33,115 nucleotides of DNA from Acidobacteriota bacterium (GTDB lineage: Bacteria; Acidobacteriota; Vicinamibacteria; Vicinamibacterales; UBA2999), in NCBI GenBank assembly GCA_032155105.1, contig JALDXK010000002.1, positions 1 through 33,115 on the forward strand, in the 5' to 3' direction. The notes beneath the pieces were generated by a model. It made no database searches. It saw only the letters and a list, made by a program, of their open reading frames with translations, and was not told the origin of the DNA. Positions 23,550 through 33,115 of this stretch are shown here, one piece after another. The position numbers and the translations under genes were made by a program. The first letter of the stretch is position 1. Every line of letters begins with the position of its first letter.

Positions 23550-25124
23550 ATGCCAGTCGCACCAACCTATCCAGGCATTTACATCGAAGAAATCTCCAGC
23601 GGTGTACGCACCATCACCGGTGTCGCGACATCCATCACCGCATTTGTTGGCAGCGCTCCACGCGGACCGGTCAACGAGCCGACGACCATCAATAGCTTTG
23701 CTGACTATGAAAGGCGCTTCGGCGGCTTGTCGCTCGATAGCACGATGAGCTACGCCGTCCGGGCCTTCTATCAGAATGGCGGCAGCCAGGCCGTGATCGT
23801 CCGGCTCGCACGATCTCCCGGGAGTGAGCCTGATGCCTCCCAAGCGGCCACGATTACGTTGCCGGCGCTGGCCAGTCCTCCCGGCGAGCTCGTGCTGGTT
23901 GCGGCGAGCGTCGGCGCCTGGGGAAAGAGCCTCAGCGCGGTGGTCGATCACGATACGAAGGACAAGGACGAAGCCAACCCTGCGCTGTTCAACCTGACCA
24001 TCTCGGAAGAAGGCGGCGGGATCGAGAAGTTTCTCAACGTCTCGGTGGATCCGGCCAACGCCCGTTATCTTCCCCGCGTGCTCGCGCAAGGCTCGATGCT
24101 CGTGCGGGTGAGGAAAGGCAGCGCCGATCAATTTGAGATCGCGAGTGTCAGGCCGGCCGAAACAGGTTCAACCGGAGTTGTTGCTGATGGTGGACGCGAC
24201 GGCGGCCCGTTGACCCCCGCTGAATTCACTGGCGGGGACACGCAGGGCACGAAGAGCGGACTGTATGCGCTGGAGAAAGCCGATCTGTTCAACTTGCTGT
24301 GCATCCCGCCTTTGGCGCCGGATGAGGATGTGACGGCGCCTCTGCTCACGGACGCTGTCCTGTACTGTCAGAAGCGCCGCGCCATGTTGCTGGTCGATCC
24401 GCCCAGCAGCTGGACGAGCAAGCAGAGCGCGATAGAGGACTTGCCGAACTATCCCGACCTCACCGGGCCCGCGCGTAATCATGCCGCGATCTTTTTTCCA
24501 CGCATCAAACAAGCCAATCCACTGCGCGACCACCAAATCGAAGAGTTTGTGCCGTGTGGCGCTGTGGCAGGTGTCTTCGCCCGCACCGACGCGCAACGGG
24601 GCGTCTGGAAAGCACCGGCGGGCCAGGATGCCGGCCTGGTGGGTGTGCCGCAACTGAGCGTGCCGCTCACTGATGCTGAGAATGGCGACTTGAACGTTCT
24701 TGGGATCAACTGCCTGCGGGCGTTTCCCGTGATTGGGCGCGTGGTGTGGGGCGCGCGCACGCTCGAGGGCGCCGATCGTCTGGCCTCCGAATGGAAATAC
24801 ATCCCGGTTCGGCGCACGGCGCTGTTTATCGAGGAAAGCTTGTACCGCGGGACTCAGTGGGTGGTCTTCGAGCCCAACGATGAACCGCTGTGGTCGCAGA
24901 TCCGGCTCAACGTTGGTGCATTCATGCAGAACATGTTTCGCCAGGGCGCCTTTCAAGGCAAGACGCCACGCGAGGCCTACTTCGTCAAGTGCGACAAAGA
25001 GACGACCACGCAAAACGACATCAACCTTGGCATCGTCAATGTTCTGGTCGGCTTTGCTCCCCTGAAGCCTGCCGAGTTCGTGATTCTCAAGATTCAGCAG
25101 ATCGCTGGCCAGATTGAGGTCTGA
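23550..25124 (+). CDS. Contractile tail sheath protein (eCIS Afp2-4/Pvc2-4-like)
   Basis: N-terminus MPVAPTYPGIYIEE.SSGVRTITGVATSITAFVG is the hallmark sheath start. The C-terminal sheath block reads NCLRAFPVIGRVVWGARTL...KYIPVRR...FEPND..LW. RBS ggaggt lies before the ATG at 23550. Confidence 0.92.
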   Translation: MPVAPTYPGIYIEEISSGVRTITGVATSITAFVGSAPRGPVNEPTTINSFADYERRFGGLSLDSTMSYAVRAFYQNGGSQAVIVRLARSPGSEPDASQAATITLPALASPPGELVLVAASVGAWGKSLSAVVDHDTKDKDEANPALFNLTISEEGGGIEKFLNVSVDPANARYLPRVLAQGSMLVRVRKGSADQFEIASVRPAETGSTGVVADGGRDGGPLTPAEFTGGDTQGTKSGLYALEKADLFNLLCIPPLAPDEDVTAPLLTDAVLYCQKRRAMLLVDPPSSWTSKQSAIEDLPNYPDLTGPARNHAAIFFPRIKQANPLRDHQIEEFVPCGAVAGVFARTDAQRGVWKAPAGQDAGLVGVPQLSVPLTDAENGDLNVLGINCLRAFPVIGRVVWGARTLEGADRLASEWKYIPVRRTALFIEESLYRGTQWVVFEPNDEPLWSQIRLNVGAFMQNMFRQGAFQGKTPREAYFVKCDKETTTQNDINLGIVNVLVGFAPLKPAEFVILKIQQIAGQIEV

Positions 25125-25171
25125 GACGGCAGGTCCTGTCGTCGTGATCCTGTCGTCAAGAGGAGGAGCTT

Positions 25172-30740: not shown

Positions 30741-33115
30741 GCGTGCGAGCCCTGGCATCGGCCAAACCCGCGGCAGTCACATCGCCCTCGATCACCGCCA
30801 GGCCCACGGGCCTCGTGCAACGGAAGTGTGCCTGCGGTGGTGCTGCTGGTGTGACAGGCGAGTGTGAAGGGTGTAGAACGAAGCGCTTGAGCCTGCAGAC
30901 GAAACTCAAGGTCAACGAGTCTGGTGATGTCTACGAACAGGAAGCCGATCGGATTGCCGATCAGGTGTTGGCGGCGCCAGCTCACTCCACAGTGAGCATC
31001 GCTCCACTGCGCATCCAACGCTTGTCAGGGCACTCGGGCGGCGAACTGACTGCGGCGCCCGCAAGCGTGGACTATGCGCTCGCCAGTCCCGGCACACCGT
31101 TGGATCCGGCGTTACGGATCGAGATGGAGCAGCGTTTCGGTCACGACTTCTCCAAGGTGCGCGTGCATAGCGATACGGCCGCGGCGCAATCAGCGCGAGA
31201 CGTCAACGCGCATGCCTACACGGTGGGACACAGCGTGGTGTTCGATGCGACCCGGTTTGCCCCGGCGACCTCCGATGGTCGTCGCTTGCTGGCCCATGAG
31301 CTGACTCACGTCGTGCAGCAATCCAATCCGGCCGGCGCGTCCTCGTCATCATTACAGCGACAGCCGACTCCCGCACCGGACGCCGCGCGCGACGCTGCCG
31401 TGGCGGAAGGGCGCGCCGCCGTTCGAACCGGCGAGTACCAATCCGACGCGGAAGATGCCTTGAAACTCGATCCGCGCAAACGCCAAAGCAAAGACTACGC
31501 ATGGAAGCACGGTGTGAAGGACAGGGACCGAATGCGGAGCAAGCGAGACCTGCCTCCCAAACACAAATATGAGGTCGCGGTCAAGGTTCGGTTCTTCAGA
31601 GGTGAGGCCAAGCTCGCTTACATACAGACTATCAGTCCGGCTCTGGCGGAGTTCGCCGAGGACGGGCCCGAGATTTTAGACGAAACCAAAGGCGCCGGCG
31701 AACTCGAGGGAGTAGAGGCCCCACCAAGGATCGGCCAAGGCACGGGCCAAAGCACCGGCCAAGGTGCCGGTCAAAGTACGGGCCAAGGGGCGCCGCAATT
31801 GAAATGCGACCTCGGCAAGCGGGAATACGTCCTGGAATACGAAGGTGAGCCGTGGCTCACCAGATGCATGGATATCACGACAGATCCAGAAGCCAATAAT
31901 ATCGCCGATTTCAATATCGTCGATGCTGACGGTTTTGCCGTGAAAGGAACGACCTGGGAAAACGTCGAGTACGACAGCTTCAAAGTCATGCGGGTGAAAT
32001 ATAAGGACGGTCGTTTCGAGTACTTCATGCTGAATGAGATCGGCGACTTTCGCCTGAGCTACAAGAACCCGCGCGGGCTTCGTAACATCACATATGTGAA
32101 GCGACCATCAACAGGCTTGATCTATCCAGTCGCCCAGGGTGACCTGCACTTCAGTGAAACGTTTACGCCCAATATTCTCCGTGCCAAGAATGGCCTGAAG
32201 CATCAAGTTAAGGAAATCCAGGAACTGTATGAATTGCTGCAGGTCGGCGGAACCTTCGCCGGCATCTTGGGTTCATATTCATCCGTCTCCGGACCGTCCG
32301 GAGTTAGAAGTGCATTCACGGGTTTCAGGAGCGTCAAAAAAATCTCGACCAAGACACCACAACCCCCACCGACGAGAACAGTTGACGTCGTTCCCAAGAA
32401 GAAGGTGTCGCCATCCGACATCACGACGGAGTCGACCAAGCCTCCCAAGAAAGCTGGTAAGCACGAGAGCCAGGAAACGGGCACGACCGTCATCAGTCGA
32501 ACCGACGACCCGGGCGGTGGCAAAGGTGACAAGAAGGCCCCAGCGAAAAAGATCGCCAAGCCACAAGAGACGAGAGGGAAGGCCGGGGGAAAGCAGGACG
32601 ACGAGTCGGAAGACCCGAAGGGCGGCAAGGCACCGGCAGCCGACAAGAAGCCAGACCCAGCACCCACGACGGCTGTGAAGACAGATATCTCGAAAATGTC
32701 TGAGGCCGACAAGGCGACGCGCGTCGGGGAAATCAGGCAAGAGCGGGCCAAAAACGATGCGGAGATGAAAGAGCTGCAAGTAAAGATCGACGCGGCGAAC
32801 AAGAGATCGAGAGACGCGAGCGCGAAAGCGGTTGATGCCAAAGGAGACGCCAAGACGGAGTTGGTTGACAGCGCGAGGCGGAACAAGGCGTCCGCGGAGA
32901 GGTGGAAGGCCGATCAAGACGCGGTGCGACTTCGCAACAGGAAACTGCGGGATGAGGAAACCCGTCTACTGCCTCCCAACGTGGCTCCGAAATCGTGGCC
33001 AGAGGCCGAAGCATCGCTGCGTACAGAGTTTGGCGGCCAAAAGCAGTCACTGTCGACGGCGACGAAGGATGGAGATCTAGGCCGACGTGATATCGACTGC
33101 TTCACTCCCCACGAC
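30737..33115 (+). CDS. DUF4157 (HExxH metallopeptidase-like) domain-headed multidomain protein, putative eCIS effector/toxin; 3'-truncated by the window edge (at least 793 codons)
   Basis: Not in the supplied ORF track because no stop lies inside the window. I translated 30737-33115 codon by codon and found no in-frame stop. Cys-rich leader QRKCACGG..GECEGC. DUF4157 core: LDPALRIEMEQRFGHDFSKVRVHSDTAAAQSARDVNAHAYTVGHSVVFD...GRRLLAHELTHVVQQ (HELTH at 31295-31309). After it come a GQxT repeat linker, an unrecognised AT-richer domain, a Lys/Pro-rich tract, a coiled coil and the start of another domain. Confidence 0.85.
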   Translation, partial: MSVRALASAKPAAVTSPSITARPTGLVQRKCACGGAAGVTGECEGCRTKRLSLQTKLKVNESGDVYEQEADRIADQVLAAPAHSTVSIAPLRIQRLSGHSGGELTAAPASVDYALASPGTPLDPALRIEMEQRFGHDFSKVRVHSDTAAAQSARDVNAHAYTVGHSVVFDATRFAPATSDGRRLLAHELTHVVQQSNPAGASSSSLQRQPTPAPDAARDAAVAEGRAAVRTGEYQSDAEDALKLDPRKRQSKDYAWKHGVKDRDRMRSKRDLPPKHKYEVAVKVRFFRGEAKLAYIQTISPALAEFAEDGPEILDETKGAGELEGVEAPPRIGQGTGQSTGQGAGQSTGQGAPQLKCDLGKREYVLEYEGEPWLTRCMDITTDPEANNIADFNIVDADGFAVKGTTWENVEYDSFKVMRVKYKDGRFEYFMLNEIGDFRLSYKNPRGLRNITYVKRPSTGLIYPVAQGDLHFSETFTPNILRAKNGLKHQVKEIQELYELLQVGGTFAGILGSYSSVSGPSGVRSAFTGFRSVKKISTKTPQPPPTRTVDVVPKKKVSPSDITTESTKPPKKAGKHESQETGTTVISRTDDPGGGKGDKKAPAKKIAKPQETRGKAGGKQDDESEDPKGGKAPAADKKPDPAPTTAVKTDISKMSEADKATRVGEIRQERAKNDAEMKELQVKIDAANKRSRDASAKAVDAKGDAKTELVDSARRNKASAERWKADQDAVRLRNRKLRDEETRLLPPNVAPKSWPEAEASLRTEFGGQKQSLSTATKDGDLGRRDIDCFTPHD
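31733..31792 (+). repeat. Five in-frame 12-nt tandem repeats (ggccaaggcacg-like) encoding GQGT-GQST-GQGA-GQST-GQGA
   Basis: Read directly: ggccaaggcacg / ggccaaagcacc / ggccaaggtgcc / ggtcaaagtacg / ggccaaggggcg. Confidence 0.85.

What the first reader, a model, noticed from the sequence alone, without database searches (positions are those of the whole stretch)
23550..33115. First half of an extracellular contractile injection system (eCIS, Afp/PVC-like) locus
Sheath, tube, DUF4255 cap-like protein and an Afp15-like AAA+ ATPase occur in one co-directional, mostly overlapping gene string, followed by a DUF4157 protein. No capsid, portal, terminase or lysis genes are visible, which argues against a prophage. 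The sheath is a single gene and there is no TssB/C split, Hcp or ClpV-type double-AAA ATPase, which argues against a T6SS. The order sheath-tube-X-Y-cap-ATPase differs from the canonical Afp/PVC order, where cap and ATPase come last. It resembles the less-studied eCIS lineages, some of which act intracellularly (Streptomyces) or are thylakoid-anchored (Anabaena). Baseplate, spike, PAAR and LysM genes are not in the window, so the system is incomplete as seen.
Basis: partly seen in the sequence, partly recalled or inferred. Interest (0 to 1): 0.8.

Follow-up and report, generated by a model that had tools for sequence, protein, structure and literature searches.

The report
Half of a phage-tail-like injection system
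The last 9.6 kb of this contig really is the front half of a phage-tail-like protein-injection machine, of a type already catalogued in hundreds of bacterial and archaeal genomes, so it is a sound but ordinary find.

Summary
From 23550 to the contig end there is one co-directional, translationally coupled gene string. It encodes a sheath, a tube, a T4 gp26/gp51-like hub-assembly protein, a protein with conserved ends and a variable disordered middle, and a Pvc16_N (DUF4255) cap. These are followed by a WHD plus single-AAA+ ATPase, an 86-aa protein and a DUF4157 (Pfam now calls it eCIS_core) protein that runs off the end. The window is the whole contig, so it cannot be extended.

About 55 of 80 related loci from more than 10 phyla keep the same order. 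They continue with second tube, split spike, PAAR-like, gp25, two Baseplate_J proteins and a further wedge-like protein. The missing half can therefore be inferred.

The "unusual" gene order is the standard layout of lineage II contractile injection systems (Chen 2019). The haloarchaeal T6SS-like system shares the split layout, and Streptomyces relatives carry the giant DUF4157 gene that marks the S. davawensis-type clusters.

The DUF4157 protein is a polymorphic-toxin-style effector. Its first ~200 residues are shared with a close relative and the rest is swapped.

Whether the machine is released, cytoplasmic or membrane-anchored cannot be told from this half. It is a new member of a known kind, of low to moderate interest.

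The parts
23492..23549 (+). Left edge of the conserved cluster, with leader and ribosome-binding site (GGAGG at 23540-23544)
   Evidence: blastn homology to the closest relative L086 (86% nt identity) starts at exactly 23492, and the left flanks are unrelated. Sequence read. No conserved sigma-54 element was found.
23550..25124 (+). Contractile sheath protein (524 aa; Cis2/Afp2-like)
   Evidence: Pfam Phage_sheath_1 and Phage_sheath_1C. Full-length match to the Streptomyces CIS sheath 8bky (E 3.3e-83) and to the Halogeometricum sheath 9ezm (E 4.6e-73). The called gene P0001 is 524 aa.
25172..25693 (+). Inner tube protein (173 aa; Cis1/Afp1-like)
   Evidence: Pfam Phage_T4_gp19, E 8.7e-45. TIGR02241 and weak CIS1/CIS5 family matches. 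PDB matches to the tCIS All3324 tube and the AlgoCIS tube. Median 76% identity across the related loci.
25711..26442 (+). T4 gp26/gp51-family baseplate-hub assembly protein homologue (243 aa, two CxxC pairs)
   Evidence: PF12322, E 3e-16. PHROG 150 'baseplate hub'. AlphaFold2 model with pLDDT 92. 42 BFVD matches at E<=1e-3 to 'baseplate hub assembly protein/catalyst' and 'gp26 hub subunit'. No match to any solved structure.
26439..27146 (+). Lineage-specific protein (235 aa) with conserved N- and C-terminal motifs and a variable Pro/Ser/Ala-rich middle; function unknown (scaffold or ruler candidate)
   Evidence: No Pfam, PHROG or NCBIfam hit. Present between gene 03 and the cap in 54 of 54 loci examined, at 174-980 aa. 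425 representative clusters, with the C-terminal motif always at the protein's end. The ATG at 26439 overlaps the previous stop codon.
27143..28498 (+). Cap / tail-terminator-like protein (451 aa): Pvc16_N domain plus a ~240-aa C-terminal extension
   Evidence: PF14065 Pvc16_N, E 4.5e-52, residues 10-212. The C-terminal half has only a weak IPT/TIG signal (E 0.008, below the cut-off).
28495..30483 (+). Afp15/Cis15-like ATPase (662 aa): N-terminal winged-helix domain plus one classic-clade AAA+ module
   Evidence: PF22977 WHD and PF00004 AAA. The AAA module is closest to the Cdc48/VCP D2 domain. At least 581 relatives in species-representative genomes.
30480..30740 (+). Conserved 86-aa protein of unknown function, translationally coupled to the ATPase and to the effector gene
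   Evidence: No family hit. An 85-88 aa gene sits at the same position in L001, L004, L005 and L086. tblastn finds it in 26 loci, including loci with no effector gene next to it.
30737..33115 (+). DUF4157/eCIS_core polymorphic effector, cut by the contig end (793 codons seen, about 60 missing). eCIS_core domain at ~31097-31327; HELTH motif at 31295-31309.
   Evidence: PF13699, E 1.4e-30. Aligns to the full-length relatives P0121 (796 aa, 68% identity in alignment A1) and P0122 (838 aa). Relatives carry varied C-terminal Pfam domains: PF14410 (GH-E) and PF14521 (Aspzincin_M35), as named, plus PF14436, PF15540, PF03734 and PF15500. Homology to L086 stops just after the DUF4157 domain.

Best explanation
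Window 23550-33115 is the first module of an operon for a lineage II contractile injection system (CIS), a phage-tail-derived nanomachine.

Shown directly in the window:
- the sheath and the inner tube;
- a homologue of the T4 gp26/gp51 hub-assembly factor;
- a lineage-specific protein with conserved ends and a disordered middle;
- the Pvc16_N cap;
- the Afp15-type AAA+ ATPase;
- a small conserved protein;
- the first effector.

Inferred from relatives: the genome also carries, directly downstream, further DUF4157 effector or immunity genes and then the baseplate module. That module holds the tube initiator, an LysM/gpX-like small protein, a split gp27-like plus gp5/gpV-like spike, a PAAR-like tip, gp25, two Baseplate_J proteins and a Mu gp48-like wedge.

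Inferred from published work on other CIS: the baseplate and spike nucleate tube and sheath polymerisation, and the cap ends it. The AAA+ ATPase loads effectors through their disordered N-terminal region. The DUF4157 module docks on the tube-initiator/spike complex. Sheath contraction then expels the tube, spike and effector.

The effector here has a shared ~200-residue N-terminal loading module (including DUF4157), a conserved middle domain, a lysine-rich disordered stretch, a coiled coil and a swappable C-terminal toxin domain of unidentified activity.

The most likely use is delivery of polymorphic toxins against competing microbes. The route (released particle, cytoplasmic firing or membrane-anchored firing) is undetermined.
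For: - Domain assignments.
- Operon structure with overlapping start and stop codons.
- Same order of the first six to eight genes, followed by CIS_tube, Phage_base_V, DUF4280, GPW_gp25 and a large baseplate protein, in L003, L004 and L005.
- The same layout in about 55 of 80 species-representative genomes from Verrucomicrobiota, Acidobacteriota, Chloroflexota, Gemmatimonadota, Proteobacteria, Actinobacteria, Bacteroidota and methanogenic archaea.
- Both large baseplate proteins pass the Baseplate_J cut-off. Gene 17 is conserved.
- Lineage II features described by Chen et al. 2019 fit these relatives: no Afp14, split VgrG, two Afp11 copies in subtypes IIa/IIc, archaeal members (PMC6899500).
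- The Halogeometricum cluster has the same two-subcluster layout, with DUF4157 genes in the spacer (PMC11566945).
- Streptomyces relatives hold a 2197-aa DUF4157 ORF at the effector position, like Tme of S. davawensis (PMC11126660).
- Loading by the disordered N-terminal region and the Alg15 ATPase: bioRxiv 10.64898/2026.05.27.728243.
- DUF4157 proteins bind the tube initiator or spike: PMC13277306 and PMC11126660.
- Polymorphic architecture of the effector.
Against: - The baseplate and spike genes of this organism are not seen, because the contig ends at 33115.
- Some cyanobacterial relatives have split loci, so contiguity is not guaranteed.
- No expression or particle data exist.
- The toxin activity is unknown. 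There is no Pfam hit, no PDB sequence hit and no fold match, and the C-terminal domain was modelled with low confidence.
- The functions assigned to genes 03, 04 and 07 are inferences.
Confidence: 0.9

Rival explanations
1. The machine is not extracellular. It may fire inside the producer cell, like the Streptomyces coelicolor system. It may be anchored to the cytoplasmic membrane and act on contact, like the haloarchaeal T6SS-like system. Or it may attach to the producer's own envelope, as proposed for S. davawensis. This is a rival to the word 'extracellular', not to the identification as a CIS.
For: - The closest solved sheaths are the cytoplasmic Streptomyces CIS (8bky/8bl4, E 3e-83 and 2e-80, full length) and the membrane-bound Halogeometricum CIS (9ezm, E 5e-73). 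Afp, PVC, AlgoCIS and tCIS sheaths match only in the C-terminal domain (PMC10066040; PMC11566945).
- Streptomyces relatives of this ATPase sit in loci with the Tme-type arrangement of S. davawensis, whose CIS is proposed to act at the producer's own envelope (PMC11126660).
Against: - The tube is closest to the tCIS and AlgoCIS tubes.
- Relatives carry polymorphic toxins with adjacent candidate immunity genes, for example a GH-E protein followed by a SUFU-family protein in L005. That fits action against other cells.
- Tail-fibre genes have recently been found in many lineage II and actinobacterial loci (PMC12923769).
- The region where fibres or anchors would lie was not recovered for this lineage.
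Confidence: 0.4
2. The locus is a remnant or a split system. Only this half is present here, and the baseplate module is elsewhere in the genome or has been lost.
For: - The second half is not visible.
- Several cyanobacterial relatives (L009, L011, L013, L015, L020) have cap and ATPase with no sheath, tube or baseplate in the standard order within 10 kb.
- Chen et al. describe split loci.
Against: - All eight genes are intact and translationally coupled.
- The closest relatives (L086 with 86% nt identity; L001-L007) and about 55 of 80 loci are contiguous.
- The contig ends inside a polymorphic toxin gene, a typical place for an assembly to break.
Confidence: 0.07
3. The string is the tail module of a prophage or an R-type tailocin.
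For: Sheath, tube and a T4-like hub-assembly protein are of phage origin.
Against: - No capsid, portal, terminase, integrase or lysis genes in the window or in related loci.
- Pvc16_N, the WHD-AAA ATPase and DUF4157 are CIS markers (PMC8213781; PMC12923769).
- A scan of the IMG/VR viral contig collection with a relative's baseplate protein (gene 16 of L012) found nothing.
- A tblastn of gene 03 against 50,697 phage records gave one weak hit.
Confidence: 0.02
4. The string is a canonical type VI secretion system.
For: It has a contractile sheath, a tube and an AAA+ ATPase.
Against: - The sheath is one 524-aa gene of the phage-sheath type, not a TssB/TssC pair.
- The tube is gp19-type, not Hcp.
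- The ATPase has a single AAA module, unlike ClpV.
- No TssA, J, K, L or M genes are present.
Confidence: 0.01

Closest known systems
Lineage II eCIS-like loci of dbeCIS (Chen et al. 2019, PMC6899500), subtypes IIa/IIc
   Same: - Core set of sheath, tube, Afp16-like cap and Afp15-like ATPase.
- No Afp14 homologue.
- In relatives: spike split into two ORFs, a PAAR-like gene, two Afp11 (Baseplate_J) copies, archaeal members, and subtype-specific genes without known domains.
   Different: The subtype could not be assigned, because no Afp11 from this organism and no reference tree were available. One of the 'genes without known domains' does have a domain here (gene 03 = PF12322).
Streptomyces davawensis CIS with the tape-measure-related effector Tme (PMC11126660)
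   Same: - Described as a CIS group spread across distant phyla, with a DUF4157-bearing ORF just upstream of the tube-initiator and spike genes.
- Streptomyces and Kitasatospora relatives of the window's ATPase have exactly this layout, with a 2197-aa DUF4157 ORF.
- The window's effector also has a lysine-rich disordered stretch and a coiled coil.
   Different: - The window's effector is about 850 aa, not about 2250 aa.
- No tape-measure homology and no clear transmembrane helices were shown.
- Its C-terminal domain is not the EndA-like nuclease.
- Many relatives carry several shorter effectors, or none at this position.
- S. davawensis itself was not among the 80 loci kept.
Halogeometricum borinquense T6SS-like CIS (clade IIa; PMC11566945; sheath 9ezm)
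   Same: - Two structural subclusters separated by a spacer region holding DUF4157 genes.
- No tape-measure or plug homologue.
- Sheath similarity at E 4.6e-73.
   Different: It is anchored to the cytoplasmic membrane through a six-helix membrane protein encoded upstream. No such gene lies upstream of the window's sheath.
Streptomyces coelicolor / S. venezuelae cytoplasmic CIS (PMC10066040; 8bky, 8bl4)
   Same: Best full-length sheath match among solved structures (E 3.3e-83). No Afp13 fibre, Afp14 or ClpV homologue.
   Different: - Different gene arrangement.
- Its effectors (Sco4256-4258) have a transmembrane helix rather than the DUF4157 toxin architecture.
- The window's tube does not match a Streptomyces tube chain at E<=1e-3.
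Afp / PVC / AlgoCIS (lineage I eCIS)
   Same: Same machine parts: sheath, gp19-type tube, Pvc16_N cap and an AAA+ loader. [quoted passage not shown]
   Different: - In lineage I the cap and ATPase come last in the operon, and there are several sheath paralogues and an Afp14 tape measure.
- Sheath similarity is limited to the C-terminal domain.

Membership tests
Contractile injection system superfamily (eCIS/CIS core set, Chen 2019 / Geller 2021) | Phage-type contractile sheath encoded by a single gene | tested here: met
   Phage_sheath_1 and Phage_sheath_1C. PDB CIS sheath matches.
Contractile injection system superfamily (eCIS/CIS core set, Chen 2019 / Geller 2021) | gp19-type inner tube protein | tested here: met
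   Phage_T4_gp19, E 8.7e-45. Matches to the tCIS and AlgoCIS tubes.
Contractile injection system superfamily (eCIS/CIS core set, Chen 2019 / Geller 2021) | Afp16/Pvc16_N (DUF4255) cap protein | tested here: met
   PF14065, E 4.5e-52.
Contractile injection system superfamily (eCIS/CIS core set, Chen 2019 / Geller 2021) | Afp15-type AAA+ ATPase | tested here: met
   WHD plus AAA. Single Cdc48-D2-like module.
Contractile injection system superfamily (eCIS/CIS core set, Chen 2019 / Geller 2021) | Baseplate and spike genes: Afp11 (Baseplate_J), Afp9 (gp25), Afp8 (spike), Afp7, Afp5 | not testable with these tools
   The contig ends at 33115 and is the whole record. These genes are present directly downstream in relatives with the same first half.
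Contractile injection system superfamily (eCIS/CIS core set, Chen 2019 / Geller 2021) | DUF4157/eCIS_core marker gene in the locus | tested here: met
   PF13699, E 1.4e-30. Marker status: PMC8213781.
Contractile injection system superfamily (eCIS/CIS core set, Chen 2019 / Geller 2021) | No capsid, portal or terminase genes in the locus | tested here: met
   None in 1-33115. None in the related loci.
Lineage II, subtypes IIa/IIc (dbeCIS) | No Afp14; spike split into two ORFs; two Afp11 copies; PAAR present; archaeal members | tested here: inconclusive
   Met in syntenic relatives. Only the absence of Afp14 can be seen in the window itself. No Afp11 tree could be built.
eCIS in the strict sense (released particle that binds targets through tail fibres) | Tail-fibre gene (Afp13-like or with a baseplate-anchoring domain) and release from the cell | not testable with these tools
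   The region beyond the baseplate genes was not recovered for the window, and for relatives only up to gene 17. No experimental data exist.
S. davawensis-type CIS group (Tme-like effector) | DUF4157-N-terminal ORF just upstream of the tube-initiator and spike genes, largest ORF of the cluster, tape-measure homology | tested here: inconclusive
   The position fits by synteny with relatives, and Streptomyces relatives have a 2197-aa ORF there. The window's ORF is about 850 aa, and no tape-measure homology was detected.
Type VI secretion system | TssB/TssC split sheath, Hcp, ClpV, TssJLM membrane complex | tested here: not met
   Single sheath gene, gp19-type tube, single-AAA ATPase, and no Tss genes.
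Prophage / R-type tailocin | Head, packaging, lysis or integrase genes next to the tail genes | tested here: not met
   and the related loci.

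The most novel reading that the evidence does not exclude
Lineage II systems are reported to lack a tape-measure homologue. The universally syntenic pair of genes 03 and 04 could fill that gap. Gene 03 is the T4 gp26/gp51-like hub-assembly factor. 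Gene 04 is the protein with conserved terminal motifs and a length-variable disordered middle. Gene 04 would act as a tube-lumen scaffold or length determinant, docking at the hub with one end and at the cap with the other, and gene 03 would be its assembly chaperone. I found no paper in the searched library that describes this family.
Probability: 0.15. Interest if true: 0.5.

Novelty: new member of a known kind. Interest (0 to 1): 0.22.

Why it matters
It adds one more environmental, high-GC bacterium to the long list of carriers of lineage II contractile injection systems. It also gives another example of a DUF4157 effector with a swapped toxin end.

The useful by-products are general to the lineage rather than specific to this contig:
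- One lineage-specific gene of no known function (gene 03) is recognisable as a T4 gp26/gp51-type hub-assembly protein.
- A second (gene 04) forms a large family with conserved ends and a variable middle.
- An 86-aa gene is a conserved companion of the ATPase.

These are leads for how systems that lack a tape measure assemble and load cargo. They do not change the picture of what the locus is.

Tried and rejected
- **Extending the contig.** Exact-sequence look-ups of the 86-aa protein, the ATPase and the tube found nothing. The window is the entire contig.
- **Sigma-54 promoter.** L001 and L002 have sigma-54 activators upstream. However, a GG-N10-GC scan found a good site upstream of the sheath in only 1 of 52 loci, and the best site in the window scored 6 of 12 consensus positions. 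This is no better than background. The sigma-70 and terminator scans were also at chance level.
- **Toxin activity.**
  - No Pfam hit for the C-terminal or middle domain.
  - No PDB sequence hit.
  - The AlphaFold2 model of the full-length relative P0121 has a low-confidence C-terminal domain.
  - Foldseek found only generic coiled coils.
  - My reading of a PD-(D/E)xK nuclease motif (D-I-D ... E-A-K) in the alignment is therefore a guess only.
- **Gene 03 in solved CIS or T4 baseplate structures.** No sequence match and no fold match.
- **Gene 04 as a simple one-chain ruler.** Streptomyces homologues are about 260-325 aa, which gives at most about 120 nm fully extended. The S. davawensis particles are about 200 nm (PMC11126660). 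This argues against it.
- **Literature search for PF12322/gp51 in CIS.** Nothing relevant.
- **Searching beyond the baseplate for fibres or anchors.** The viral-contig scan was empty. The metagenome scan gave three short contigs that reached only one further gene.
- **Taxonomy of the source organism.** Not resolved. The nearest named relatives of the CIS proteins are Pyrinomonadaceae/Acidobacteriota and Verrucomicrobiota, but the cluster is evidently mobile.

Full report
**1. What is in the sequence**

ORF listing and Pfam scans confirm a single co-directional gene string from 23550 to the end of the window.

| Coordinates | Size | Assignment |
|---|---|---|
| 23550-25124 | 524 aa | Sheath: Phage_sheath_1 and Phage_sheath_1C. 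ATG preceded by GGAGG. Same start as the database gene call P0001. |
| 25172-25693 | 173 aa | Tube: Phage_T4_gp19, E 8.7e-45 |
| 25711-26442 | 243 aa | PF12322 T4_baseplate, E 3e-16 |
| 26439-27146 | 235 aa | No family |
| 27143-28498 | 451 aa | Pvc16_N (the old DUF4255), E 4.5e-52 |
| 28495-30483 | 662 aa | WHD plus one AAA domain |
| 30480-30740 | 86 aa | No family |
| 30737-33115 | 793 codons seen | PF13699 with HELTH motif. This family is the old DUF4157, now named eCIS_core. The frame runs off the contig end. |

Five of the seven junctions are 4-nt ATGA/GTGA overlaps. The others are gaps of 17 and 47 nt. The string therefore reads as one translationally coupled operon.

Everything upstream (1-23400) is ordinary chromosomal content: a dnaE fragment, a PD40 protein, a radical SAM protein, a triple RidA, a SET-domain protein, a PBP, alpha-2-macroglobulin with DUF1175, an MsrPQ-like pair, a thioredoxin-fold protein, tRNA-Met, a cNMP-binding protein and GSDH. 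There are no head, packaging, lysis or T6SS genes.

The window is the complete 33115-bp contig. Exact look-ups of its proteins found no other copy.

**2. What the missing half looks like in relatives**

The sheath has more than 8000 database homologues. The top 120 are 63-83% identical and include named Acidobacteriota, cyanobacteria, Scalindua and archaea.

Five metagenomic relatives show the same first six genes in the same order. Most also have the small gene, followed by one to three DUF4157 genes. After that come:
- a CIS_tube protein;
- a ~105-120 aa protein (weak gpX/LysM-like signal);
- a ~375 aa protein;
- Phage_base_V;
- DUF4280 (PAAR-like);
- GPW_gp25;
- an ~850 aa protein that passes the Baseplate_J cut-off;
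- a ~900 aa protein that also passes it;
- a ~657 aa protein with a weak Mu gp48 signal, conserved in seven loci.

A scan of one genome per species with the window's ATPase found at least 581 relatives. It returned 80 loci from Verrucomicrobiota, Acidobacteriota, Chloroflexota, Gemmatimonadota, Bacteroidota, Myxococcota, Alpha-, Beta- and Gammaproteobacteria, Actinobacteria, cyanobacteria and methanogenic archaea.

A tblastn map of 16 reference proteins onto all loci shows the order 01-02-03-(04)-05-06-(07)-[DUF4157 x 0-4]-09-...-16 in about 55 of the 80. Median identities are 76% for the tube, 55% for the sheath and 53% for the ATPase.

The window is therefore the 5' half of a very common, strongly syntenic cluster of roughly 17 kb plus effectors.

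**3. Edges of the element and the effector**

The closest relative found is L086, whose gene 03 is 92% identical in protein sequence. It aligns to the window at 86% nucleotide identity only from 23492 to 31323.

- *Left edge.* The left flanks are unrelated: transposase, RadC and HepT in L086, against GSDH in the window. The cluster therefore behaves as a mobile island whose left edge is about 58 nt upstream of the sheath ATG.
- *Right edge.* Similarity stops just after the DUF4157 domain. The two effector proteins both start MSVRA... and share 68% identity over about 210 residues, then diverge completely. A second DUF4157 gene in L086 matches the same N-terminal segment.

Relatives of the window's effector share its middle domain but end in different domains (Pfam accessions; the names for PF14410 and PF14521 appear):
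- PF14410 (GH-E);
- PF14436;
- PF15540;
- PF18451;
- PF03734;
- PF15500;
- PF14521 (Aspzincin_M35).

In L005 the GH-E version is followed by a SUFU-family gene. From my own knowledge, this is a known immunity-protein family of polymorphic toxin systems. This is the architecture of a polymorphic toxin.

The window's copy lacks about 60 C-terminal residues relative to P0121 and P0122.

The AlphaFold2 model of P0121 shows these regions:
- a well-folded DUF4157 domain;
- a confident middle domain;
- a disordered lysine-rich stretch;
- a long coiled-coil hairpin;
- a poorly resolved C-terminal domain.

No family, PDB sequence or fold match identifies the activity.

**4. The two "X-Y" genes and the small gene**

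*Gene 03.*
- It matches PF12322 and PHROG 150 'baseplate hub'.
- It has 1504 homologues, and all 120 listed carry PF12322.
- It gives a confident model, pLDDT 92.
- The model matches 42 predicted viral structures annotated as T4-like baseplate hub assembly protein or catalyst (gp51) and gp26 hub subunit.
- It matches nothing in the PDB, which includes solved CIS particles and phage baseplates. That is consistent with a non-structural assembly factor, but this is an inference.

*Gene 04.*
- It is present between gene 03 and the cap in all 54 loci where both neighbours were found.
- It has a conserved N-terminus (MSDYLxxLxxR...P.....FEP) and a conserved C-terminus (V.IGRIEVRA ... LSLDDYL..R).
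- Its Pro/Ser/Ala-rich middle varies from 174 to 980 residues.
- A full HMMER scan finds 425 representative clusters, and the C-terminal motif is always at the protein's end.
- Chen et al. noted that lineage II lacks Afp14 and has subtype-specific genes without known domains. Genes 03, 04 and 07 fit that description.
- A simple ruler role for gene 04 is doubtful on length grounds (see Tried and rejected).

*Gene 07.* The 86-aa gene is coupled to the ATPase. It also occurs in loci with no adjacent effector gene, so it looks like a core accessory protein rather than an effector chaperone.

**5. How it most likely works**

Shown here: the parts list and the synteny.

Inferred from characterised systems:
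- The baseplate and spike nucleate the tube and sheath, and the Pvc16_N protein caps them.
- The AAA+ protein loads cargo through a disordered N-terminal loading sequence. DUF4157 is dispensable for loading in AlgoCIS (bioRxiv 10.64898/2026.05.27.728243).
- DUF4157 proteins bind the tube initiator or spike complex in Streptomyces (PMC13277306; PMC11126660).
- Contraction then expels the tube, spike and effector.

The shared N-terminal ~200 residues of the effectors in this lineage fit a common loading or docking module.

**6. Comparison with known systems**

Among solved structures, the sheath matches the cytoplasmic Streptomyces CIS best and over its full length (8bky, E 3.3e-83). Next is the membrane-anchored Halogeometricum system (9ezm, E 4.6e-73). 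PVC, Afp, AlgoCIS and tCIS sheaths match only in the C-terminal domain. The tube, in contrast, is closest to the tCIS and AlgoCIS tubes.

The Halogeometricum cluster (clade IIa) is described as two structural subclusters separated by a spacer with DUF4157 genes. That is the same plan as here.

Streptomyces and Kitasatospora relatives of the window's ATPase carry a single 2197-aa DUF4157 ORF between the ATPase and the tube initiator. This is the defining trait of the S. davawensis-type group, which its authors describe as spread across distant phyla.

The locus therefore belongs to lineage II. Features seen in relatives point to subtype IIa or IIc, but I could not assign the subtype.

Because characterised relatives use three different modes of action, 'extracellular' is unproven. 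I put about 0.4 on a non-released mode.

**7. Verdict**

The gene order that looked unusual is the norm for a catalogued lineage (dbeCIS, eCIStem, and the 2025-2026 surveys seen). This is a new member of a known kind, truncated by the assembly, with no feature that departs from its many relatives.

Interest is low to moderate (0.22). The only lead with some novelty is the possible assembly or length-control role of the gene 03/04 pair.

Noticed in passing
window 20079-20155 (+): A tRNA-Met (CAT) gene lies 3.3 kb upstream of the left edge of the CIS island. Two minus-strand genes (a cNMP-binding protein and GSDH) lie between them, so it is not the immediate insertion site.
   Followed up: partly
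window 31724-31788: A 12-nt tandem repeat (5.5 copies) inside the effector gene encodes GQGTGQSTGQGAGQSTGQGA. The five aligned homologues all lack this insertion.
   Followed up: partly
window 9915-15397 (-) and 6872-9175 (+): A bacterial alpha-2-macroglobulin (1643 aa) sits next to a DUF1175/NlpC-P60 protein and near a 767-aa protein with transpeptidase and SpoIID domains. This looks like a periplasmic anti-protease and cell-wall repair neighbourhood.
   Followed up: no
window 15378-17775 (+): A 574-aa protein with a molybdopterin oxidoreductase domain is followed by a ferric-reductase-like membrane protein. The pair resembles MsrP/MsrQ, but the first protein has a long N-terminal extension.
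   Followed up: no
window 5230-6471 (-): A 413-aa protein contains three tandem RidA/L-PSP domains (three Pfam stretches). It overlaps a 394-aa plus-strand ORF with no family, which is probably spurious.
   Followed up: no
L009, L011, L013, L015, L020, L036, L048, L082 (cyanobacterial loci): In many filamentous cyanobacteria the cap-ATPase pair sits without sheath, tube or baseplate genes in the standard order within 10 kb. These may be split or rearranged versions of the cluster.
   Followed up: no
L064 (Acetobacteraceae MAG) 1-12000: A rearranged relative in which baseplate genes 16, 15 and 17 precede the cap and ATPase, closer to the Afp/PVC order.
   Followed up: no
L001 6560-8632 and L002 3573-5000: Sigma-54 enhancer-binding activators lie just upstream of the sheath in two relatives. 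No conserved -24/-12 promoter was found upstream of sheath genes across 52 loci.
   Followed up: yes
L014 (Methanothrix), L008 (Methanomicrobiaceae), L074 (Bathycorpusculum): Archaeal loci have the same gene order. The archaeal ATPases are 43-60% identical to the window's. This points to recent transfer between domains. The gene 04 homologue in L014 is 980 aa, the longest seen.
   Followed up: partly
L086 7815-9449: In the closest relative the sheath is called as two fragments (203 and 269 aa), and the alignment to the window has 87 gaps. These are probably indel errors in that assembly rather than a pseudogene.
   Followed up: partly
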